A DNA stretch of 64,000 nucleotides from positions 368,915-432,914 of the forward strand of contig JWKQ01000001.1 of the NCBI GenBank assembly GCA_000806115.1, read 5' to 3'. The notes under the pieces are model-generated. The model ran no database searches, was not told the DNA's origin, and saw only the letters and a list, made by a program, of their open reading frames with translations. Origin of the DNA: an archaeon GW2011_AR5. GTDB taxonomy: Archaea; Aenigmatarchaeota; Aenigmatarchaeia; GW2011-AR5. Position numbers and translations under genes: made by a program. Shown piece after piece: positions 10,986 through 62,486 of the stretch (the stretch's first letter is position 1; each line of letters opens with the position of its first letter).

Positions 10986-11011
10986 CTTCGTATTCGCATA
11001 ACGAATACGAA
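10986..11011 (+). terminator. hairpin immediately after the desulforedoxin-like ORF
   Basis: ttcgtattcg / cgaatacgaa forms a 10-bp stem with a 5-nt loop, followed by atttct. Confidence 0.4.
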
Positions 11012-11222
11012 TTTCTCAATGACTCATGAAATGTTCCTAATATCTCTGGACTAAAGCCCAGAGTATCATGGGAACATGGCATCCAGAATGCATACAGAAA
11101 ACAAAGTTTTCTGTAGCATCAGTTAGCTTCGCTAACTGCTTGCATTGAGTTTTATCTGCAACCTAAAGGTTGCAGTATTCAATGCATTCTTAGATAAATT
11201 TACATGTTAAGTCATTGAAATC
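11012..11222 (+). repeat. family-1 multi-hairpin intergenic element, copy A
   Basis: Outer stem tcaatgact (11016) / agtcattga (11210). P1 atgttcc/ggaacat. P2 atccagaatgca...tgcattcttagat. Inner hairpins at 11044-11063 and 11156-11175 carry TAAA loops. Two extra hairpins are inserted at 11089-11140. No ORF. Confidence 0.8.
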
Positions 11223-15319: not shown

Positions 15320-15421
15320 CTATATAATGAACCCACAAAAGATTTTCGCGCAAGTGAGTTCATAGATAGTGCACAAGGAAGTAATATTATTCAGATTATT
15401 TCCTTGTAGCACTATAAAAAC
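15320..15421 (+). repeat. family-2 two-hairpin element, copy H
   Basis: ctatataatgaacccac...gtgagttcat, then atagtgcacaagg...ccttgtagcactat, then aaaaac. Paralog of 56072-56176. Ends in a TATA-like CTATAAAAA about 27 nt upstream of the 15444 ATG. Confidence 0.7.
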
Positions 15422-19117: not shown

Positions 19118-22027
19118 TCAACCTTTCACGTTGCCGACAGGAACGAATTTGCAGACTTTGCTGGATATACCTGCCTTGTGCACGGCGTCTATCACTTCGT
19201 CTATGTCCTTGTAGGCGCTTCCCGCTTCCTCTGCGAGCCCCGCGAAGCTTGTTGTGCGCACGTATATTCCGCGCTTCTCCATGTCGCGCTGAAGGCTGTC
19301 TCCCCTGTAAAGCTGCCTCGCCCTCGTGCGCGACATCGTCCTTCCCGAGCCGTGAGCGGTGCTGCCGAAGGTTTCCTTCATACCCTTTTCCGTTCCCACC
19401 AGCAAATATGAGCCTGTCTCCATCGAGCCGCCTATGATTACCGGCTGCCCTATGTCACGATATATTTTTGGCACTTCCTCGCGCCCGGGACCGAATGCAC
19501 GCGTTGCGCCTTTCCTGTGAACCAGCACCTGCTGCCTTTTCCCGTTGACATCATGCTCCTCAAGCTTCGCCGTGTTGTGTGCCACGTCATAGACGCAGTT
19601 CATCTCCATCGACTCTGCCGACTGCCCCATCACCTTTGAGAAGCACTCCCGTATCCTGTGTAATATAACCTGGCGGTTGGCAAAACTCATGTTGATGCCG
19701 CATTTCATCGCCGTGAAGTAATCCTGGCCCTCTTTGCTCTGGAAAGGCGCGCATGCAAGCTCGCGGTCCAGTATCTTTATTCCGTACTTGGATTCCATAA
19801 CTTCGAGGAAGACGTTGAGATAATCCGTGGCAACCTGGTGCCCGAAGCCGCGGCTCCCGCAGTGGAACATAACCACTACCTGGTTGGGAAAGATTCCCAT
19901 CCGTTTTGCGATTTCCTTATCGACTATGTTCTCAGGCTTCACCACCTGTATCTCAAGATAGTGGTTGCCGCTGCCGAGCGTCCCAATCTGGTCCATGCCG
20001 CGCTCGATTGCCTTTGAGCTGACTTTTGATGCGTCACCTTCCATCTTACCGTTCTCTTCTATCCGCTCGAGGTCCTCTTCCCAGCCGTAACCTTGCTTCA
20101 CAGCCCATTCCGCGCCGCCCACGATAGCCTCGCGGAAGGTATTCTTGTTAAGCTTGACAAACCCCTTGCTGCCCACACCGGCGGGGACGCGCTCGAACAA
20201 CAAATCCACAAGCTGCTTCAGCTTCGGCTTGACGTCCTTGTAGGTAAGATTGGTTGTCAGAAGGCGCATTCCGCAGTTATGAGAAACTATGCAATTCGCT
20301 ATGAAATTATGATGGCGGCTAGGCATTGTGAAATCATAGACATATCCGTCATATTCGATATTTTTAATTTCCGAAACCTCATCTTTGATAAACTCGGAAT
20401 TTGGAATCTCAACCGTTCTACAAAATTCTTGGAATGTGGGGAAACTCCCTGAAATTCTCACGCCTTTATAGGTCTTATATTTTCTTGCTCTTACTCTGCT
20501 CTTCATGTCTGAAATTTCAATTTCATTGCACTCGATCATCTTCTCCAGATTTTTCAGATATTCACGCTTGAAATTCAGATAAGAAAGCGCAAGCATGGAA
20601 AGCCTTCTCCGTTCTGCGCAATATTCATAGCCAATGTTACCCCATAATCTACTCAAATTTTCAGGCTTTGCTGATAATCTGAGTGCAAGCTTGTGGGTTG
20701 GCTCTCCGAATGTATTAATTGCAATCCTTTGCCTGTATATTTTATTGGCAACAACCCCAAATTCCAGAAGGAGATTTGTTATTTCCAGAATGAAGTTCAT
20801 ATTATCCTTTTCAAGACTGTCTATCTTGTTCTGGCTAAAACTAGGCTCAGTGAAGCTCGTCAATTCGCTCTTCCTCTGACATGGCTTATTAAGCTCTGCA
20901 CCAAAGAGCCCGGCAAGATAAAGCCTTTTTATCCACTTTGGAGCTTTTCCAATCCATTTCGGAACAGATGTTTTTGTCCGAGATTTATTGCCTTTTGGAA
21001 CACCAAGAGCATGGAGCAAAACACTCAATGCCTGGGAATTAATATGGTATTGCGTGCTTTTTCCTATTATTTCCTGTTTAGAGCCGGATCCAGTTGTGAT
21101 CGTGCTTGAATAATCCAATGTCCTGATATGTGTTGCCTTGAATCCAAGCTCGAAAATGTCCTCTTTAATTTCTTCAAGATCTTCCTGTTTTCCTATAATT
21201 CTAGTAGACCAAATATCCATGCTTCTTTTTTTGGAAAAGTATGATCCTACCCATCCATCGCCTGTTATGAAACCAACAAGCTTTGCCAATATAGGTAATT
21301 TTGCAGAATTGTATCTCAATGGCAGGAGAGATTTTTCTTTAAGCTCTTTCACTATATTTTCCCTATTGCCTACAATGGATCGAATAGCATTTTCATCTAA
21401 GATTATATCACTAGACGGCTCCTCATATTCTATCCCATTAAATGGATGAATAATGATTTTTTGACCCTCTCTCATTTCGCTTGCTTCTATGAACTCGCTG
21501 CCCGTATACAGAGGATGATCAGAAGAAAGGATGATTTCATGACCGGTTTTTGTAGTTATTTTCAGGACTGGCTTGTCTGATTCCTTTGCCAAAAATATTA
21601 CAGGCTTGTCATGCAGTTTATTGCTATTTTCAGTATCAATATAGCTAACTGTATCTGTGCATTTCTCCATTTCTTTTATTTTTCTGAAATATCCAAAGCG
21701 TGTAAGTATTCTTGTCTCCGGATGCAAGCAGTTGATGTCGAATCCTATTCCGCCGGGAGAAATGACGCCTTTCTCGACGTCCATCGCCGCGACGCCGCCT
21801 ATCGGAAATCCGTACCCGGAGTGCCCGTCAGACATGCAATAAGCATAATTGATGATACCCGGCAGCGTGGCTACATTGGTTATCTGGTCATAAACCTGCA
21901 TGTCCATCTGGGCGACTATTCCCTCGGTGCCTATAATCTTCGCAGGCACGTGCATGCCCGGCTTGTAAGTCTTCGGGATAACCCATTCAGTTTCGCTGAC
22001 TTTCTGCAAAAAGTTTGGTACTGCCAA
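19118..22027 (-). CDS. rtcB: RNA-splicing ligase RtcB, interrupted by an intein
   Basis: Exteins carry the RtcB motifs (GGIGFDIN | CGMRLL, GSGNHY, HCGSRGFGH, HGSGR). 969 aa, against about 480 for an intein-free RtcB. Confidence 0.95.
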   Translation of the reverse strand: MAVPNFLQKVSETEWVIPKTYKPGMHVPAKIIGTEGIVAQMDMQVYDQITNVATLPGIINYAYCMSDGHSGYGFPIGGVAAMDVEKGVISPGGIGFDINCLHPETRILTRFGYFRKIKEMEKCTDTVSYIDTENSNKLHDKPVIFLAKESDKPVLKITTKTGHEIILSSDHPLYTGSEFIEASEMREGQKIIIHPFNGIEYEEPSSDIILDENAIRSIVGNRENIVKELKEKSLLPLRYNSAKLPILAKLVGFITGDGWVGSYFSKKRSMDIWSTRIIGKQEDLEEIKEDIFELGFKATHIRTLDYSSTITTGSGSKQEIIGKSTQYHINSQALSVLLHALGVPKGNKSRTKTSVPKWIGKAPKWIKRLYLAGLFGAELNKPCQRKSELTSFTEPSFSQNKIDSLEKDNMNFILEITNLLLEFGVVANKIYRQRIAINTFGEPTHKLALRLSAKPENLSRLWGNIGYEYCAERRRLSMLALSYLNFKREYLKNLEKMIECNEIEISDMKSRVRARKYKTYKGVRISGSFPTFQEFCRTVEIPNSEFIKDEVSEIKNIEYDGYVYDFTMPSRHHNFIANCIVSHNCGMRLLTTNLTYKDVKPKLKQLVDLLFERVPAGVGSKGFVKLNKNTFREAIVGGAEWAVKQGYGWEEDLERIEENGKMEGDASKVSSKAIERGMDQIGTLGSGNHYLEIQVVKPENIVDKEIAKRMGIFPNQVVVMFHCGSRGFGHQVATDYLNVFLEVMESKYGIKILDRELACAPFQSKEGQDYFTAMKCGINMSFANRQVILHRIRECFSKVMGQSAESMEMNCVYDVAHNTAKLEEHDVNGKRQQVLVHRKGATRAFGPGREEVPKIYRDIGQPVIIGGSMETGSYLLVGTEKGMKETFGSTAHGSGRTMSRTRARQLYRGDSLQRDMEKRGIYVRTTSFAGLAEEAGSAYKDIDEVIDAVHKAGISSKVCKFVPVGNVKG
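20276..21730 (-). mobile_element. intein (485 aa) with LAGLIDADG homing-endonuclease domain
   Basis: Starts with Cys100 (CLHPETRIL) right after FDIN. Ends ...IVSHN, followed by the +1 Cys of CGMRLL. LAGLIDADG-type motifs LVGFITGDGW and YLAGLFGAEL. Confidence 0.85.
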
Positions 22028-26758: not shown

Positions 26759-26976
26759 ATCTTCCTAATATCCCACGACTTTAGTTGTGGATTTGCAAGG
26801 ATGACTCAAAGAGTCATCCTGCACGGAAGGAACTTCGTTCCTTCCTGTGTTGGAAGATAGGATTCAGATTCATTGTGTTTCACAAGGACTTCGAAGAAAT
26901 CCTGTGCAGGAAAAGCAAAGCTTTTCCTCGCATCACGCGACTAAAGTCGCGTGTTTTCAATGAATCTAGAATAATC
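26759..26976 (+). repeat. family-1 multi-hairpin intergenic element, copy C
   Basis: P1 atcttcc (26759) / ggaagat (26852) encloses TAATA and three hairpins. P2 attcagattcattg (26862) / caatgaatctagaat (26958) encloses three hairpins, including 26934-26953 with a TAAA loop. Track ORF 26785..26982 lies wholly inside and is rejected. Confidence 0.8.
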
Positions 26977-28550: not shown

Positions 28551-28697
28551 CCAAGTTATGAAATGCTCCTAATAACCCGCACCTAAAGGTGCGGGTTTCA
28601 TGGGAGCATAGCATCCAGAATGCATTGAGTTTCATCTGCCGCATAAATGCGGCAGTTTTCAATGCATTCTCGGATAATATCCAGATTCTTTACTTGG
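28551..28697 (+). repeat. family-1 multi-hairpin intergenic element, copy B (minimal form)
   Basis: Outer stem ccaagt (28551) / acttgg (28692). P1 atgctcc (28563) / ggagcat (28603) around TAATA and hairpin 28575-28596. P2 atccagaatgcattga (28613) / tcaatgcattctcggat (28659) around hairpin 28636-28655. Confidence 0.8.
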
Positions 28698-35478: not shown

Positions 35479-35621
35479 CATCTTCTTTGTTAGAAGATGG
35501 GACCCCGAATGCGCCTCTAATACATGATGAAGCTTCGCTTCACCTGTACAGAAAGAACTTCGTTCTTTCATGTGCATGCCGTCTAAAGACGGCAGTTTCA
35601 GGCACATTCAAGATAATTATC
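35479..35621 (+). repeat. family-1 multi-hairpin intergenic element, copy D
   Basis: P1 catcttc/gaagatg with loop tttgtta. P2 cgaatgcgcc (35506) / ggcacattc (35601) encloses TCTAATA and three hairpins (TTC, TTC and TAAA loops). Near-identical to copy E. Track ORF 35487..35681 lies inside and is rejected. Confidence 0.8.
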
Positions 35622-35662
35622 AGGGTCAAAATGTGCCACTTTAAAGTTATAAAAGTTTTTCG

Positions 35663-45279: not shown

Positions 45280-45453
45280 CATCTTCTTTGTATACCCACG
45301 ACTTTAGTCGTGGGTTTGTTAGAAGATGGGATCCCGAATGCGCCTCTAATTAAACATGATGAAGCTTCGCTTCACCTGTACAGAAAGAACTTCGTTCTTT
45401 CATGTACATGCCGTCTAAAGACGGCAGTTTCAGGCACATTCAAGATGAGAATC
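45280..45453 (+). repeat. family-1 multi-hairpin intergenic element, copy E
   Basis: Same as copy D apart from two substitutions, a 3-nt indel and a 28-nt hairpin insertion (45292-45319) in the P1 loop. Confidence 0.8.
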
Positions 45454-45786
45454 AGCACGAAAGGCCTCAGGAAAGAGGAAGGCTACAGCTTCGAAGATGT
45501 CAGGCGCGCGCTGATAGACTGGCACATACCTTACGAGGTTACGCGCCGCCCGGCAAGAGCGGACACGTATTTCAGGAGCTCGGCAGTGATCCTTTGCGAA
45601 AGCGACCCTGAGAAAAGGCAGGGGCACATATCGAGGGTGATGGAAAGGTTCAATGCGCGTCAATCGGACGGCTATCTTTCATGCCATGCGTACTACAGAA
45701 TTACGCCAGAGTTTGACTTATCCGTGCTGAACGGGCATCCAAAATTCTTGAATGGCATGCTTGTCGAAATTACATTAATAGGATGA
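45445..45786 (+). CDS. hypothetical protein (113 aa)
   Basis: ATG at 45445 lies in the tail of repeat E. In frame with track ORF 45064..45786, whose upstream part runs through the repeat and antisense to the transposase fragment. Confidence 0.35.
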   Translation: MRISTKGLRKEEGYSFEDVRRALIDWHIPYEVTRRPARADTYFRSSAVILCESDPEKRQGHISRVMERFNARQSDGYLSCHAYYRITPEFDLSVLNGHPKFLNGMLVEITLIG

Positions 45787-46369
45787 TGGAATCTGAGCCC
45801 GTCAAGTAACTTTCGTCACTTGTAACAGATCGAAGACCTGTAATCCAGAGGCAGAGCCTCAAGTCTGGGATGCTCTTCCATACGATATCCTATGTGTGCC
45901 GGATTACTAAAATTTATCCTAAAACGCCAAATTCTGCATTTAAAACCTCTCTCTACAGAGAATTCCTAGTTCTTAAGCGACATCACATATCGAAATGCTT
46001 TAAAAGCTTTCTATAATTACCACTTGTTGATAGTGACAAATAATATACTGTAAGTGATGCCTGAGCACCACGGAAGTAAAGGAACGGTAATATTCAACCC
46101 TACAAACATCACAGCGACAATTTTGCTTCCGCAAAATTGCACAAAAGCGTCCACGCGATGCAACAAGCTGCTCCAGCTCCATGCAAAACCTCCCGGCAAG
46201 CCCGCGAGGAATGGAGAGTCCACGAGGACAGGAACGGCTAGAAAGCTGTCTGCGCATGCATAGCGTGAGCTTTATTCAGCTGTGATTTTTCTTCAAACTC
46301 AATTCTTCCGCAAGTCTCGCACGACTTGCGTTCGTCAACCTAGACAGCCATTCCATTGGAGGACGTGCC

Positions 46370-56071: not shown

Positions 56072-56176
56072 CTATATAGTGAACCCACAAAAGAATCTGG
56101 ATGTGTTTGTGGGTTCACAAATAGCTCACAAGTAAGTAATTATATCCGGATTGTTTTCTTGTAGAGCTATAAATAC
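56072..56176 (+). repeat. family-2 two-hairpin element, copy I
   Basis: 13-bp stem gtgaacccacaaa (56079) / tttgtgggttcac (56106). Second stem atagctcacaag (56121) / cttgtagagctat (56158). Ends CTATAAATA. Confidence 0.7.
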
Positions 56177-59417: not shown

Positions 59418-60746
59418 ATGAAATTGCTTCTTGCGGCATTCGCCCTGTTGCTGCTGCTCGGGCTTGCCGGCGCAATGACAACCCAGTGCAGCCAGTTCAC
59501 GTCCGAAACAGGCTGCGAGAACTCGGGATGCTCATGGTGCGACAGGTGCGTCGGAAAGGAAATCAATCCCTACGGCTGGGACAGGTGCGTGGAGAGCAGC
59601 CTCAGCTGTACATACAACTGCTCGCGCACATGCGGAGCCAACTGCACTGCAGACAACGACTGTTCAGTCAACCTGACAGACACGACATGCTTCTACGCCG
59701 GCACGTGCGGAGCGTGCAGCTGCAATTACCGGAATGCCACATGCCCGCAGAACGGCACCATTATCGAACAGTACGGAGATCAGGTATGCTACTTCGGGGC
59801 GCGCTACTGCACGTCGGGGGGCTGCTCTATCAATAGCTGTGTCCTACGGACAAACACAATCTGCGACCCGGTTGATGGCTGCGTTTCCTGCCAGGATGAC
59901 TGCAAACAGAATGACGCTTCAGCGTCGTACAGCTCCGACGAGTACATAATCGATAAAAAATGTCAGGACGGCGACGTATTCGGCAGGCAGGTAACCTATG
60001 ACTGCACATACAACGGCCAATGCAATGTGACGAGGACAGATGTGCTTGTCGAAAAGTGCAAGGCGGACTGTTCCGAGACATTCGTCAACGGAATCAATCG
60101 CCCCAAATGCAACGACGAGCTATGCAATATAGACGGTTTAAAGGTGGATTGCAACCGCTACGACGGCTTCTACGGGGACAGCTACTGCGCGGGCAACGAC
60201 ATATACCAGGGATACAGGGATTACAAGTGCGGCAACAACGAGTGCGCCTACGATAACATGCCCACAAAGAAGGGTTCCTGCAACAAAAGCGGCACGACGC
60301 CTTCGGCGTCAGTCAGTTTGTGCCAGAACGGGAGGTGCCATGATTCAGGAACCGTAATAATTGTGAATAGAAGCGAAAGCCCCGGCGGGCAAGAGCCGGC
60401 GCCGCCTTCGGCAAACGTCCTGACAAACATGACTGTGGCGGGCGGGCGGGTATACAGCGGGGTTCTTTTTGGACAAAATGACATAACAGTGCCGGCAAAC
60501 GGGAGAAGCGGGAAGATAAGCTTCAGAATTACGAGGACTAACGGGCTGGGAACGCTTACAATAAATCAAGAAACGACCAACACTTTGCGTCATACATATA
60601 GCCAAACCGTATTCAGCACCAGAAGCGCCGGGAGCTACGAGGTTTCCTTCAACGGCAGCCTCAGGATGCAGACGACAGGTTCAGGCTGGCTGTTCTTTAT
60701 GCCCGCTGTCTACGACGTTGGCACGATTCTGGTACTGTACGATTAA
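59418..60746 (+). CDS. secreted cysteine-rich protein (442 aa)
   Basis: Signal peptide MKLLLAAFALLLLLGLAGA. More than 40 Cys in the N-terminal 300 aa, with a beta-rich C-terminal domain. Confidence 0.65.
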   Translation: MKLLLAAFALLLLLGLAGAMTTQCSQFTSETGCENSGCSWCDRCVGKEINPYGWDRCVESSLSCTYNCSRTCGANCTADNDCSVNLTDTTCFYAGTCGACSCNYRNATCPQNGTIIEQYGDQVCYFGARYCTSGGCSINSCVLRTNTICDPVDGCVSCQDDCKQNDASASYSSDEYIIDKKCQDGDVFGRQVTYDCTYNGQCNVTRTDVLVEKCKADCSETFVNGINRPKCNDELCNIDGLKVDCNRYDGFYGDSYCAGNDIYQGYRDYKCGNNECAYDNMPTKKGSCNKSGTTPSASVSLCQNGRCHDSGTVIIVNRSESPGGQEPAPPSANVLTNMTVAGGRVYSGVLFGQNDITVPANGRSGKISFRITRTNGLGTLTINQETTNTLRHTYSQTVFSTRSAGSYEVSFNGSLRMQTTGSGWLFFMPAVYDVGTILVLYD

Positions 60747-60752
60747 CCTATC

Positions 60753-60763
60753 TTTTTATTTAT
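60753..60763 (+). promoter_or_regulatory. TATA-box-like element upstream of tRNA-Trp
   Basis: TTTTTATTTAT is centred about 30 nt upstream of the tRNA 5' end. Confidence 0.35.
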
Positions 60764-60788
60764 GCCAAGTTACTTTATTCAGAAAACA

Positions 60789-60885
60789 GGGGTCATAGTA
60801 TAAAGAGCTCCAGTAAAGCTCGTAAAACCTGGTAGAACGTCAGTCTCCAAAACTGATTATGGGGGTTCGAATCCCTCTGACCCCA
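60789..60885 (+). tRNA. tRNA-Trp (anticodon CCA) with a 23-nt insertion in the D-arm
   Basis: Acceptor ggggtca/tgacccc + A. Anticodon arm tcagt-ctCCAaa-actga (CCA at 60847-60849). T-arm ggggg-ttcgaat-ccctc. 97 nt in total. Removing 60805-60827 leaves a 74-nt cloverleaf. Confidence 0.7.
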
Positions 60886-60893
60886 TCAGGATT
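60870..60893 (+). repeat. direct repeat copy 1 (tRNA-Trp 3' end + trailer)
   Basis: AATCCCTCTGACCCCATcaGGATT. 17/17 identical, then 22/24 overall, to 61016-61039. Confidence 0.85.
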
Positions 60894-61015
60894 GCTTCGA
60901 TTAAGTTTTGCTTAATCGAGCCGCCAGTTGAACTACGTTCAACTGAGCGCGAACCTTGGGTTCGTCTGCGAATGAACTTTGTTCATTCGAGAGCTCAGTG
61001 TCAAGAAACTGCAGC
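60894..61015 (+). repeat. tandem-hairpin cassette between the tRNA-Trp 3'-end duplicates
   Basis: Four consecutive hairpins: tcgattaag/cttaatcga, cagttgaac/gttcaactg, cgaacc/ggttcg and cgaatgaac/gttcattcg. No ORF. Confidence 0.7.
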
Positions 61016-61039
61016 AATCCCTCTGACCCCATTGGGATT
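61016..61039 (+). repeat. direct repeat copy 2 (duplicate of tRNA-Trp 3' end)
   Basis: AATCCCTCTGACCCCATtgGGATT. Confidence 0.85.
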
Positions 61040-61045
61040 TTATGT

Positions 61046-61594
61046 TCAGAAAAAGTTCTGGGTTATGTGTGCAAAATCCCCGGCAAATGTCACGCCGATG
61101 CCTTCCCTCTGGTAATGCCTTCTCAGGATATTTTCCCTGTGCCCCGGACTGTTCATCCAGCCCCCGACTGTCTTGGCTGCCAGCTCCTGCTGGGTGTACC
61201 AGCTGTATTCCCTTCTCCTGCCTGTAACCTGCCTAATGCCGCCGGGATACTCTATGAAGCTCGTAACCTCCCTGCAAGACTCGTGAAGCGGTATTTTAGC
61301 GATATTTTCGCCTATTCCTTCATAAATTGCGCTTCCTACAGTCTTTCTGACCGGATACCCTGCAATCCTTGCCCTGTCTACCGGCATCCTGCCCTCGGGC
61401 GTGCCGTGACTGAAGTATCCCCTGAATGTCATGTCGCTGCTGTGGTAGCGGGCTACGCCGGACAAAGCGGGGTCTAATCCGAGCTCGGGAAGCGCATATG
61501 TACGCCTTTGGGCGTTTATCATCTCATGGATGGAACGCTCCAAAGACACGGGAATTATGAGAGGTTTGGCGTCCTGGGGCATAGAAATCATCAT
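61046..61594 (-). CDS. CAP/SCP (YkwD-like) domain protein
   Basis: HSSDM...YFSH, GENIA and WMNSPGHRENIL motifs of the CAP superfamily. Confidence 0.75.
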   Translation of the reverse strand: MMISMPQDAKPLIIPVSLERSIHEMINAQRRTYALPELGLDPALSGVARYHSSDMTFRGYFSHGTPEGRMPVDRARIAGYPVRKTVGSAIYEGIGENIAKIPLHESCREVTSFIEYPGGIRQVTGRRREYSWYTQQELAAKTVGGWMNSPGHRENILRRHYQREGIGVTFAGDFAHITQNFF

Positions 61595-62209: not shown

Positions 62210-62300
62210 CATCTTCTTGTGTAAGAAGATGGAATCCAGAACTCATCCCTTCATCCCATGGCTAAAGCCATGGGTTTTCAGATGAATTCTTAGATAATTC
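62210..62300 (+). repeat. family-1 multi-hairpin intergenic element, copy F (short form)
   Basis: P1 catcttct/agaagatg. P2 atccagaactcatc (62234) / gatgaattcttagat (62281) around hairpin 62255-62274 (TAAA loop). Tail ATAATT. Confidence 0.75.
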
Positions 62301-62486
62301 CAAAATTTTGGGAAATTATAGTATCGGACAATCCTATTTGGGAATATTATTGGTTGTCCGTACTACAAGGTTGAGCGCAGCTCAACCTGTACAGGTGAGA
62401 CGAAGTTTCACCTTGTATATGTGAAGACATAATCATAATATCACTCTAAATTGTTATGTCTTGCACTATATTCCAATTCCGGAATT

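What the first reader, a model, noticed from the sequence alone, without database searches (positions are those of the whole stretch)
60789..61039. tRNA-Trp carries a D-arm hairpin insertion, and its 3' end is duplicated around a 122-nt tandem-hairpin cassette
There are two separate oddities. (a) The gene is 97 nt. A 17-nt hairpin (gagct-ccagtaa-agctc, 60805-60821) sits in the D-loop between imperfect repeats GTATAAA (60798-60804) and GTAAAA (60822-60827). Removing 60805-60827 gives a 74-nt cloverleaf with D-stem gtat/gaac (one A-A mismatch) and D-loop aaacctggta. This is a non-canonical position for an archaeal tRNA intron, and I cannot draw a clean bulge-helix-bulge. (b) The last 16 nt of the tRNA plus trailer (AATCCCTCTGACCCCAT..GGATT, 60870-60893) recur at 61016-61039 with 22/24 identity, the first 17 perfect. 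The repeats bracket a cassette of four consecutive 6-9 bp hairpins and no ORF. This resembles attL/attR left by tRNA-targeted integration, but the cargo is only hairpins.
Basis: partly seen in the sequence, partly recalled or inferred. Interest (0 to 1): 0.75.

Follow-up and report, generated by a model that had tools for sequence, protein, structure and literature searches.

The report
Interrupted tRNA-Trp gene with integration scar
A tryptophan tRNA gene of an uncultured DPANN archaeon (Aenigmarchaeota) carries a recently gained 24-base intron at an unusual place in its D-loop, and its 3' end is repeated after a 122-base block of hairpins, which is most likely the scar of a mobile element that once integrated there; both are known kinds of events.

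Summary
Both observations are real. Removing them gives a 73-nt tRNA whose D-arm matches the uninterrupted orthologues of close relatives. The insert has the geometry of a relaxed bulge-helix-bulge (HBh') splice motif. Only 5 of 20000 shuffles match it. A sister species lacks this insert. It has a 21-nt intron at position 3/4 with a perfect strict BHB. Another relative has a 41-nt D-loop intron, two have no intron, and more distant ones have the canonical 37/38 intron. Five stem pairs covary, so the gene is under selection. (b) The 24-nt repeat (22/24) starts in the T-loop and runs 8 nt past the tRNA end. The two uninterrupted orthologues have no cassette, and one of them has no repeat at all (an empty site). 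The sister species has three repeat copies. Two relatives have orphan 3'-end copies 1.7-2.5 kb downstream, across small gene islets. The best reading is an attL/attR-type integration scar whose cargo is now only hairpins. Perfect hairpins like these are about eightfold over-represented across this window. No integrase or attP donor was found. The cassette's function is unknown. These are new members of known kinds, and interest is moderate.

The parts
60789..60885 (+). tRNA-Trp(CCA) gene, 97 nt including the intron
   Evidence: Sequence read. Rfam tRNA model matches 60822-60877. ARAGORN calls the spliced form tRNA-Trp(cca), 73 nt, and finds nothing in the unspliced form.
60789..60803 (+). Exon 1: acceptor 5' strand GGGGTCA, U8 A9, D-stem 5' strand GUAU, A14 A15
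   Evidence: Alignment with the uninterrupted orthologues in L030, L031 and L023, which all read GTATAACCTGG.
60804..60827 (+). 24-nt non-canonical intron AGAGCTCCAGTAAAGCTCGTAAAA between tRNA positions 15 and 16
   Evidence: Absent from all orthologues. The BHB geometry places both splice sites exactly at these boundaries. Shuffle test: 5 of 20000 reach the observed values.
60805..60821 (+). Inner helix h' of the splice motif: GAGCU/AGCUC, 5 bp, 7-nt loop
   Evidence: Predicted in the minimum-free-energy fold of the pre-tRNA.
60798..60801 (+). H helix 5' strand (the D-stem 5' strand GUAU). It pairs with 60822-60825 (GUAA): U11-A, A12-U, U13.G paired, G10.A mismatched. The 5' bulge AA|A follows at 60802-60804.
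   Evidence: Read directly from the sequence. My BHB script scores H = 3 of 4, h = 0, h' = 5.
60828..60885 (+). Exon 2: rest of the D-loop, D-stem 3' strand GAAC, anticodon arm (CCA at 60847-60849), 4-nt variable loop, T-arm, acceptor 3' strand and discriminator A
60753..60764 (+). A/T-rich TATA-like stretch (TTTTTATTTAT) about 25-35 nt upstream of the tRNA
   Evidence: Read. Assigning it as the archaeal promoter is inference only.
60870..60893 (+). Repeat copy R1, AATCCCTCTGACCCCATCAGGATT: from T-loop position 58 to 8 nt past the tRNA 3' end (attL-like)
60894..61015 (+). 122-nt spacer ('cassette') with four perfect hairpins: H1 60897-60919, H2 60925-60945, H3 60950-60964, H4 60969-60989. It is closed by GGATTGC (60889-60895) pairing with GCAATCC (61014-61020). 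No credible ORF.
   Evidence: Within the window only the repeat itself recurs. In JGI metagenomes H1 was found only at the same locus of the sister species.
61016..61039 (+). Repeat copy R2, AATCCCTCTGACCCCATTGGGATT (attR-like). It is followed by a run of four T and, 6 nt on, by the stop codon of the convergent CAP-domain gene.
61046..61594 (-). Neighbouring CAP-domain (PF00188) gene, convergent with the tRNA. It is context, not part of the feature.
59418..60746 (+). Upstream Cys-rich 442-aa gene with no family match. Its homologue lies upstream of tRNA-Trp in all the close relatives examined, immediately so in L030 and L031. It is context.

Best explanation
The locus is the tRNA-Trp(CCA) gene of an Aenigmarchaeota (DPANN) archaeon. 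It carries two separate marks of recent DNA rearrangement.

(1) Intron. A 24-nt intron (60804-60827) sits between tRNA positions 15 and 16.
- In the precursor, the D-stem 5' strand GUAU would pair with the intron's GUAA. That gives a 3-bp central helix, U-A, A-U and U.G.
- A 3-nt bulge AA|A would hold the 5' splice site.
- The GAGCU/AGCUC hairpin would be the inner helix.
- The 3' splice site would lie two bases after the central helix, in AA|C.
- There is no outer helix. This is the relaxed HBh' form of the bulge-helix-bulge motif.
- The archaeal splicing endonuclease would cut both sites. RtcB, which this window encodes, would join the exons into a 73-nt tRNA.
- This clade lost the canonical 37/38 intron of tRNA-Trp. 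Different lineages then gained short introns at different places.

(2) Repeat and cassette. The repeat pair R1/R2 is the footprint of site-specific recombination at the T-loop and 3' end of the tRNA gene, equivalent to attL and attR.
- The DNA between the repeats has decayed to, or been replaced by, 122 nt of perfect hairpins. Perfect hairpins are common in this genome's intergenic DNA.
- In the sister species, unequal crossing-over between the repeats duplicated the 146-nt unit, and deletions followed.

Shown here: the sequences, the motif geometry, the presence/absence pattern among relatives, and the covariation.

Inferred: that splicing happens, that an integrase made the repeat, and what the hairpins do. 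They may end or stabilise the two converging transcripts, but nothing tests that.
For: Intron.
- Removing 60804-60827 gives GTATAA|CCTGG, identical to the D-arm of orthologues without the insert in L023, L030 and L031.
- ARAGORN then calls a 73-nt tRNA-Trp.
- The BHB geometry puts both splice sites exactly on the insert boundaries. Only 5 of 20000 shuffles of the insert reach H >= 3 and h' >= 5 at a boundary that restores the tRNA.
- Positive control: the same geometry finds the 37/38 sites in 9 of 11 canonical DPANN tRNA-Trp introns, mostly with H at 3 of 4. L009 and L012 fitted poorly (H 2 and 1).
- The sister species has a 21-nt intron at 3/4 with a perfect strict BHB (H 4, h 3, h' 5-6; 0 of 20000 shuffles). 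L034 has a 41-nt D-loop intron (H 4, h' 8; 0 of 20000).
- Five stem pairs show changes on both sides across the clade, including 7-66: A-U here and G-C in the others.
- The locus is identical in five further contigs from five other assemblies.
- RtcB is encoded at 19118-22027.
- DPANN endonucleases carrying an extra loop (L3) are reported to go with more disrupted tRNA genes (PMC5829648). HBh'/hBH sites and position 3/4 are known in other archaea (PMC4090602).

Repeat.
- It is significant: 2 matches observed, 0.11 expected.
- L030 has no cassette and no repeat, and L031 has no cassette. In both the tRNA is followed directly by a run of T.
- Three R copies separated by homologous cassette pieces occur in L023, L025-L027 and L036.
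- Orphan 3'-end copies lie 2.5 kb downstream in L031, across an islet with Fic, VapB-like and ParE genes. In L032 one lies 1.7 kb downstream and matches the window's R at 16 of 16 bases.
- R, and the L032 orphan, begin in the 3' half of the T-loop. From my own knowledge, this is a classic crossover place for tRNA-targeting integrases (Williams 2002). PMC3293823 describes reconstituted tRNA genes plus direct repeats at integration borders.
Against: - No RNA data, so splicing is not shown.
- The central helix has only 3 pairs, one of them G.U, and there is no outer helix. This is weaker than textbook HBh'.
- The endonuclease of this organism was not found or typed.
- No integrase, attP-bearing element or excised form was found.
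- 146 bp is too small to be a plausible free circle, so later deletion has to be assumed.
- One strain contig (L001) has two SNPs, both in R1. One of them makes an A7.C66 mismatch in the acceptor stem.
- A 64-kb window cannot show whether a second, intact tRNA-Trp gene exists elsewhere in the genome.
- The orphan copy in L031 is short (13 of 15) and only modestly significant.
Confidence: 0.66

Rival explanations
1. The D-loop insert is a disabling insertion. This copy would be a tRNA-Trp pseudogene, and a working gene would lie elsewhere in the genome.
For: ARAGORN does not call the gene and Rfam scores it only 31.5 bits. The BHB is weak: H is 3 of 4 and there is no outer helix. Strain contig L001 has an A7.C66 mismatch. 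A hairpin-rich element near 62210 is present in the window but absent from a strain contig.
Against: The insert has exact splice-motif geometry (5 of 20000 shuffles). The orthologous gene in three relatives carries other inserts or none, and two of those inserts are unmistakable BHB introns. All stems stay paired, with five compensatory pairs, one of them specific to this lineage. The locus is identical in five further contigs from other assemblies. From my own knowledge, archaeal genomes usually carry a single tRNA-Trp gene.
Confidence: 0.12
2. The repeat arose with no integrase, by local tandem duplication such as replication slippage or template switching at the palindromes. Deletions then followed. 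The hairpins would be ordinary intergenic palindromes.
For: The sister species shows that the 146-nt unit does duplicate in tandem and suffer deletions. No integrase or attP donor was found. The cassette occurs only at this locus. From general knowledge, palindromes promote replication errors.
Against: The repeat starts in the T-loop and covers exactly the tRNA 3' part plus 8 nt, as att cores do. Two other relatives have orphan tRNA-Trp 3' ends kilobases downstream with genes in between, including toxin-antitoxin genes. Slippage does not explain that. The gene content on both sides of this tRNA differs between close relatives.
Confidence: 0.22
3. R plus cassette is itself a small non-autonomous mobile unit, moved in trans by an integrase encoded elsewhere. 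This would resemble the cis-mobilisable elements (CIMEs) flanked by att sites in bacteria.
For: It is flanked by att-like repeats and has no genes. The copy number differs between sister species, one unit against two. It has terminal inverted repeats, GGATTGC and GCAATCC.
Against: No copy was found at any other locus or in any other context. The two units in the sister species share derived changes, which fits local duplication better than repeated integration. A 146-bp circle is implausibly small.
Confidence: 0.07
4. The 146 nt from R1 to R2 is a T-arm intron, and the second repeat copy supplies the real tRNA 3' end.
For: The repeat would allow an in-register excision. In L001 the first copy has the mismatch and the second does not.
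Against: No in-register pair of sites between 60862 and 60895 has a BHB. Where the excision would restore the tRNA (sites inside the shared repeat), H is at most 2 of 4. The first copy completes a perfect cloverleaf in the window.
Confidence: 0.01
5. The mature tRNA keeps the extra hairpin as an enlarged D-loop.
For: The minimum-free-energy fold keeps the other three arms and adds the hairpin.
Against: The insert splits the conserved A14-A15/C16-C17-U-G18-G19 D-loop that every orthologue has intact. From general knowledge, no such tRNA is known.
Confidence: 0.02

Closest known systems
Non-canonical archaeal tRNA introns with relaxed BHB (hBH / HBh') motifs, as catalogued by Marck & Grosjean 2003 and Sugahara et al. 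2008 and reviewed in PMC4090602
   Same: A short intron outside position 37/38. The splice sites are set by a 3-nt bulge next to a 4-position helix and an inner hairpin. Excision restores a normal cloverleaf. The sister species' 3/4 position is also reported in Thermoproteales.
   Different: The host is an Aenigmarchaeota (DPANN) archaeon, not a crenarchaeote. The central helix has only 3 pairs and there is no outer helix. Position 15/16 is not in the list of positions quoted in PMC4090602; I did not see the full catalogue.
Intron gain and 'transposition' among tRNA genes of Thermoproteales (Fujishima et al. 2010, as cited in PMC4090602)
   Same: Close relatives differ in whether and where the same tRNA gene is interrupted: 15/16, 3/4, about 20/21, none, or 37/38. 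There are hints of related intron sequence at different positions. The first 8 nt, AGAGCTCC, equal the start of the canonical introns in L008 and L013. A local match to the L034 intron was reached by 32 of 5000 shuffles.
   Different: Here one gene (tRNA-Trp) changes across lineages, rather than many genes within one genome. The sequence similarity is short and was noticed after the fact.
tRNA-Thr(GGU) locus heterogeneity in Caldiarchaeum subterraneum (Sugahara et al. 2012, PMC3293823)
   Same: Intron gain and a duplicated tRNA fragment occur at the same locus within a short evolutionary span. [quoted passage not shown]
   Different: There the fragment is a 5' piece, the 1.8-kb insert encodes a recombinase, and the intron lies in the att region. 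Here the fragment is a 3' piece, the insert is 122 nt of hairpins with no gene, and the intron lies in the other half of the tRNA.
attL/attR repeats left by integrase-mediated insertion into tRNA 3' ends (SSV1 and pNOB8-type elements, described in PMC3293823; T-loop sublocation class of Williams 2002, from my own knowledge)
   Same: [quoted passage not shown] The tRNA gene is reconstituted at one border and a partial copy sits at the other.
   Different: No integrase gene, whole or split, and no cargo genes lie between the repeats. The spacing is only 146 nt.
Cis-mobilisable elements (CIMEs), the att-flanked remnants of integrative elements in streptococci (from my own knowledge)
   Same: DNA bounded by att sites that has lost its recombination genes and can sit in tandem at the same tRNA-type site.
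   Different: CIMEs are kilobases long and bacterial. Mobilisation of the present unit has not been shown.

Membership tests
Archaeal BHB-type tRNA intron | Removing it restores a standard cloverleaf with conserved D-loop and T-loop residues | tested here: met
   The spliced sequence is called tRNA-Trp(cca), 73 nt, by ARAGORN. Its D-arm is identical to the uninterrupted orthologues.
Archaeal BHB-type tRNA intron | Central 4-bp helix H between the end of exon 1 and the 3' part of the intron | tested here: inconclusive
   3 of 4 positions pair (U-A, A-U, U.G) and the outer position is G.A. The canonical DPANN tRNA-Trp introns used as controls mostly also have 3 of 4.
Archaeal BHB-type tRNA intron | Two 3-nt bulges flanking H, each cut after its second base | tested here: met
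   The 5' bulge AA|A lies between H and h'. The 3' site AA|C lies directly after H. Both fall on the insert boundaries defined by orthologues. The 3' bulge is not closed by a helix.
Archaeal BHB-type tRNA intron | Strict form hBHBh': outer helix h of at least 2 bp | tested here: not met
   h = 0. It therefore qualifies only as the relaxed HBh' form. The sister species' 3/4 intron does meet the strict form.
Archaeal BHB-type tRNA intron | Inner helix h' of at least 2-3 bp | tested here: met
   GAGCU/AGCUC, 5 bp, present in the minimum-free-energy fold.
Archaeal BHB-type tRNA intron | Excision by the splicing endonuclease and ligation by RtcB in vivo | not testable with these tools
   An intein-containing RtcB is encoded at 19118-22027. 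The endonuclease was not located, and there are no RNA data.
Integrase att-site duplication at a tRNA gene | Direct repeat of the tRNA 3' part, with an intact tRNA at one border | tested here: met
   R1 60870-60893 and R2 61016-61039, 22/24 identical with the first 17 exact. Two matches observed, 0.11 expected.
Integrase att-site duplication at a tRNA gene | Relatives with an empty site | tested here: met
   In L030 and L031 the tRNA is followed directly by a T-run with no cassette. L030 has no second copy anywhere in its contig.
Integrase att-site duplication at a tRNA gene | Integrase gene, whole or partitioned, at or near a border | tested here: not met
   None lies between or beside the repeats in the window, L023, L031 or L032.
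Integrase att-site duplication at a tRNA gene | A mobile element carrying the matching attP | tested here: not met
   Three IMG/VR scans gave only chance hits inside coding DNA of unrelated contigs. Plasmid and archaeal virus sampling for this lineage is thin, so absence here is weak evidence.
MITE-like dispersed repeat | Multiple copies at different loci | tested here: not met
   In the window only R recurs. In JGI metagenomes, hairpin H1 was found only at the same locus of the sister species.

The most novel reading that the evidence does not exclude
The short tRNA introns of this clade and the hairpin modules that fill its intergenic DNA could come from one process: small palindromic DNA modules that insert with a short duplication of the target. 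When such a module lands in a tRNA gene, the hairpin supplies the inner helix. A partly self-complementary target duplication (GTATAA ... GTAAAA here) supplies the central helix. The result would be a spliceable relaxed-BHB intron from the moment of insertion. That would be a concrete DNA-level mechanism for archaeal tRNA intron gain, which is still an open question. What is in hand:
- the imperfect direct repeats flanking the intron hairpin;
- a hairpin inserted into another element's loop with a TTGT duplication, 45294-45315 compared with the copy at 35479;
- presence/absence of hairpin-rich elements between strains.
Against it: the introns of L023 and L034 show no such flanking repeats, and the intron hairpin (5-bp stem, 7-nt loop) is unlike the 8-10-bp, 3-4-nt-loop modules.
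Probability: 0.12. Interest if true: 0.75.

Novelty: new member of a known kind. Interest (0 to 1): 0.42.

Why it matters
When and how archaeal tRNA genes gain introns is unresolved. Most evidence comes from Thermoproteales and from one Caldiarchaeum population.

This clade offers a compact natural series. One tRNA gene has the canonical 37/38 intron in distant relatives. Two close relatives have no intron. Three other close lineages each have a different short intron, at 15/16, 3/4 and about 20/21.

The same gene is also a recombination hot spot. Its 3' end is duplicated, the gene content on both sides varies between relatives, and there are orphan 3' fragments. Together these make the proposed link between mobile-element integration and tRNA gene disruption testable in DPANN archaea.

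There is also a practical point. Standard tRNA finders miss this gene, so genomes of this group would be scored as lacking tRNA-Trp.

Tried and rejected
- A hand search and a script search for a strict BHB around the insert found none. A relaxed one appeared only after the hairpin was taken as the inner helix h'.
- Reading R1-cassette-R2 as a T-arm intron was rejected. There is no in-register BHB.
- A scan of GTDB genomes for the T-arm/acceptor sequence returned only 12 DPANN tRNA-Trp genes with canonical introns. None is a close relative. They served as controls.
- The first JGI metagenome scan, for an intron-less anticodon-to-3'-end pattern, found nothing.
- The second JGI scan, for hairpin H1, found only the sister species locus.
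- Three IMG/VR scans for R variants gave chance matches in phage or high-GC coding DNA.
- Rfam at a permissive threshold found nothing credible in the cassette. The best hit was a C/D snoRNA model at 22.8 bits against a gathering score of 50. By eye there is no C box and no guide complementary to the anticodon loop.
- I looked for integrases among neighbours of the tRNA in L023, L031 and L032 with Pfam, PHROGs and PDB sequences. None was found.
- Cluster look-up gave no organism names. The taxonomy rests on names attached to PCNA homologues.
- P0078's contig could not be fetched. L033 ends inside its tRNA-Trp.
Full report
**What is in the sequence**

The stretch 60789-60885 reads as a tRNA.
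- The acceptor stem is GGGGTCA/TGACCCC.
- The anticodon arm is TCAGT-CTCCAAA-ACTGA, with anticodon CCA (Trp).
- The T-arm is GGGGG-TTCGAAT-CCCTC, and the discriminator is A.
- Extra sequence sits between the D-stem 5' strand and the D-loop, including the hairpin GAGCT-CCAGTAA-AGCTC at 60805-60821.

ARAGORN finds no tRNA in the window. Rfam's tRNA model matches only 60822-60877, at 31.5 bits.

The 17-mer AATCCCTCTGACCCCAT occurs at 60870 and 61016 and nowhere else. About 0.11 matches are expected, and none of 100 shuffles gave two. The repeat extends to 22 of 24 bases.

The 122 nt between the copies fold into four perfect hairpins, with z = -6.5 against shuffles.

**Whose genome it is**

The window encodes archaeal PCNA, an intein-containing RtcB, SufB, CTP synthase and a Rad50/SMC-like protein. 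PCNA homologues at 60-86% identity that carry a source name are labelled Candidatus Aenigmarchaeota or Aenigmatarchaeota. Contigs of the same species come from aquifer metagenome assemblies. The organism is therefore a DPANN archaeon.

**Relatives of the locus**

I used the neighbouring CAP-domain protein and PCNA as handles and fetched syntenic contigs.

| Locus | Relation to the window | tRNA-Trp gene | Downstream of the tRNA |
|---|---|---|---|
| L017-L020, L022 | same species, five other assemblies | identical over 60700-61100 | identical |
| L001 | strain variant, 99.6% | two SNPs, both in repeat copy 1 | cassette identical |
| L023, L025-L027, L036 | sister species (CAP 87% identical) | no D-loop insert; 21-nt intron at 3/4 | three repeat copies |
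| L030 | PCNA 93% | uninterrupted, 73 nt | run of T, no cassette, no repeat |
| L031 | PCNA 87% | uninterrupted, 73 nt | run of T, no cassette; orphan 3' end 2.5 kb on |
| L034/L035 | PCNA 86% | 41-nt insert after U20 in the D-loop | no repeat |
| L032 | PCNA 79% | long canonical 37/38 intron | orphan 3' end 1.7 kb on |
| L007, L008, L013, L016 | labelled Aenigmatarchaeota | long canonical 37/38 intron | not examined further |

**The D-loop insert is a relaxed-BHB intron**

L023, L030 and L031 all read GTATAACCTGG across the site. The window's insert is therefore the 24 nt AGAGCTCCAGTAAAGCTCGTAAAA (60804-60827), between positions 15 and 16.

I used the standard BHB geometry:
- a 4-position central helix H;
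- a 3-nt bulge on the 3' side of each H strand;
- a cut after the second bulge base.

PMC4090602 states that the first two anticodon bases lie in H for canonical introns, which agrees with this geometry.

Taking the hairpin at 60805-60821 as the inner helix h' gives the following.
- The 5' bulge is A14 A15 | A.
- H pairs GUAU (60798-60801) with GUAA (60822-60825). The pairs are U-A, A-U and U.G, with a G.A mismatch at the outer end.
- The 3' site is AA|C at 60827|60828.

These are exactly the boundaries required by the orthologues. There is no outer helix, so this is the relaxed HBh' form and not the strict form.

In a shuffle test of the insert, 5 of 20000 shuffles reached H >= 3 and h' >= 5 at a boundary that restores the tRNA.

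As a positive control, I applied the same geometry to 11 canonical DPANN tRNA-Trp introns. It recovers the 37/38 sites in 9 of them, mostly with H at only 3 of 4. L009 and L012 fitted poorly (H 2 and 1). A 3-of-4 helix is therefore normal for this phylum.

ARAGORN calls the spliced sequence tRNA-Trp(cca), 73 nt.

**Support from the other lineages**

- The sister species' 21-nt insert ACAAACTTAGGTTTGCACAAA, between positions 3 and 4, forms a perfect strict motif. H is UGUG/CACA, the outer helix is CGA/UCG and the inner helix is CAAAC/GUUUG. The 5' leader supplies part of it. None of 20000 shuffles matched.
- L034's 41-nt insert has H of 4 bp and an inner helix of 8 bp. None of 20000 shuffles matched.
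- Across the five clade sequences, every stem pair stays paired except the third D-stem pair.
- Five pairs change on both sides: acceptor 4, 6 and 7, anticodon stem 1, and T stem 4. Pair 7-66 is A-U in the window and G-C in the others.

These genes are under selection as tRNAs, which argues against a pseudogene.

PMC5829648 reports that DPANN endonucleases with an added loop (L3) go with more disrupted tRNA genes. PMC4090602 reports hBH/HBh' sites and a 3/4 intron in other archaea.

What remains unshown: splicing itself, the type of endonuclease in this organism, and whether this is the only tRNA-Trp gene.

**Possible common origin of the introns**

The first 8 nt of the window's intron, AGAGCTCC, are identical to the first 8 nt of the canonical introns in L008 and L013. 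The intron also aligns locally with the 5' part of the L034 intron (score 20, reached by 32 of 5000 shuffles). This hints at relocation of a related intron. It is short and was noticed after the fact.

**The repeat and the cassette**

R covers T-loop position 58 through the discriminator, plus 8 nt of trailer. Each copy contains the inverted pair AATCC...GGATT.

In the sister species the order is:
- tRNA with R1 (AATCCCTCCGACCCCATTAGGATT);
- hairpins H3 and H4', and the tail;
- R2, identical to R1;
- H1, H2, H3 and the 5' arm of H4;
- a degenerate R3 (TCCTCTGACCCCATT), directly followed by the stop codon of an FHA-domain gene.

Both units share the derived GAATGAG in H4. The unit was therefore duplicated within that lineage and then trimmed by deletions. 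Unequal crossing-over between R copies would do this.

L030 is an empty site. In L031 an orphan ATTCCTCCGACCCCA lies 2.5 kb downstream. The islet between it and the tRNA holds Fic, VapB-like and ParE genes. In L032 an orphan TCCCTCTGACCCCATT lies 1.7 kb downstream. It matches the window's R at 16 of 16 bases, and the interval holds a TrmB-family gene and two unknown genes.

The genes on either side of tRNA-Trp also differ between close relatives.

This pattern fits site-specific integration at the T-loop and 3' end of the tRNA, followed by decay. PMC3293823 describes the same border structure for archaeal elements.

What argues against this reading:
- No integrase gene was found near any of these loci.
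- No element carrying a matching attP was found in IMG/VR.
- 146 bp is too small to have been a free element.

I rate the att-scar reading as more likely than plain local duplication, but not by a wide margin.

R1-cassette-R2 is not an intron. No in-register BHB exists.

**Why the 'cargo' is only hairpins**

The window holds 25 perfect hairpins with a stem of at least 8 bp and a loop of 3-5 nt. Shuffles give 3.2. They cluster in intergenic DNA at 10987-11175, 26798-26953, 28574-28655, 35479-35600, 45294-45430, 46118-46330 and 62210-62388.

Hairpins H2 and H4 share the tip GAAC-NNN-GTTC with hairpins at 26825, 35551 and 45383.

Strain contig L001 lacks two hairpin-rich elements that are present at about 62210-62297 and 62320-62464. 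DNA of this kind therefore comes and goes.

The cassette as a whole is not a dispersed repeat. Its function is unknown. It lies between two converging genes, so a role at transcript 3' ends is possible but untested.

**Verdict**

Both parts belong to known kinds: a non-canonical archaeal tRNA intron, and a duplicated tRNA 3' end at a recombination hot spot. The interest lies in the comparative series. One tRNA gene shows five different intron states among relatives, in a phylum where tRNA gene disruption has been little studied.

Noticed in passing
window 10987-11175, 26798-26953, 28574-28655, 35479-35600, 45294-45430, 46118-46330, 62210-62388: Intergenic clusters of perfect palindromic hairpins: 25 with a stem of at least 8 bp and a loop of 3-5 nt, against 3.2 in shuffles. 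Stems vary but tips recur (C-TAAA-G, GAAC-NNN-GTTC). Some belong to repeat families: 35486-35623 and 45315-45455 are 94% identical, and 11026-11197 and 28558-28677 are about 80% identical.
   Followed up: partly
window 62210-62297 and about 62320-62464, compared with L001: Two hairpin-rich elements present in the window are absent from a 99.6%-identical strain contig. The second has TATAGT...ACTATA ends. They look like small mobile (MITE-like) insertions with little or no target duplication.
   Followed up: partly
window 45294-45315 compared with 35479-35499: One copy of a repeat family has an extra 9-bp-stem hairpin (ACCCACGACTTTAGTCGTGGGT) inserted into the loop of another hairpin, flanked by a TTGT duplication. 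Hairpin modules therefore nest inside one another.
   Followed up: no
L001 (rc), matching window 60878 and 60887: The only two SNPs in 440 nt between a strain contig and the window both fall in repeat copy R1. They make R1 identical to the sister species' R1 and create an A7.C66 mismatch in the acceptor stem. This could reflect recombination at R or an assembly effect.
   Followed up: no
L023 (rc) about 3170-3130, just upstream of the tRNA: The 5' leader of the sister species' tRNA keeps AAAACAGGGGTTG. This is the same upstream context and 7-nt acceptor strand as the uninterrupted L030-type gene. It lies 8 nt before the real 5' end, as if the intron arrived together with a duplicated piece of exon 1.
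   Followed up: no
L033 5375-5417 (contig end): A further relative (PCNA 91%) has a tRNA-Trp-like start, GGGGCCA, followed by a different hairpin (CTAAG-CTTTT-CTTAG) before AACCTTGG. This may be yet another D-arm insert, but the contig stops there.
   Followed up: no
window 19118-22027 (-): RtcB RNA ligase interrupted by an intein (NCBIfam RtcB_rel_intein, 1121.7 bits against a curated cut-off of 1150).
   Followed up: no
window 15320-15421 and 56072-56176: Two copies, 75% identical, of a roughly 100-nt intergenic element with nested inverted repeats (TGAACCCAC...GTGGGTTCA and CACAAGGAAGTAAT...ATTATTTCCTTGTAG). It has no Rfam match at gathering score. It could be a small RNA gene or another repeat element.
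   Followed up: no
L008 and L013 tRNA-Trp introns; window 60804-60811: The canonical 37/38 introns of two Aenigmatarchaeota tRNA-Trp genes begin with AGAGCTCC, the same 8 nt that begin the window's D-loop intron.
   Followed up: partly
window 59418-60746 (+): A Cys-rich, probably secreted, 442-aa protein with no Pfam or NCBIfam match. Its homologue lies upstream of tRNA-Trp in all the close relatives examined, immediately so in L030 and L031.
   Followed up: no
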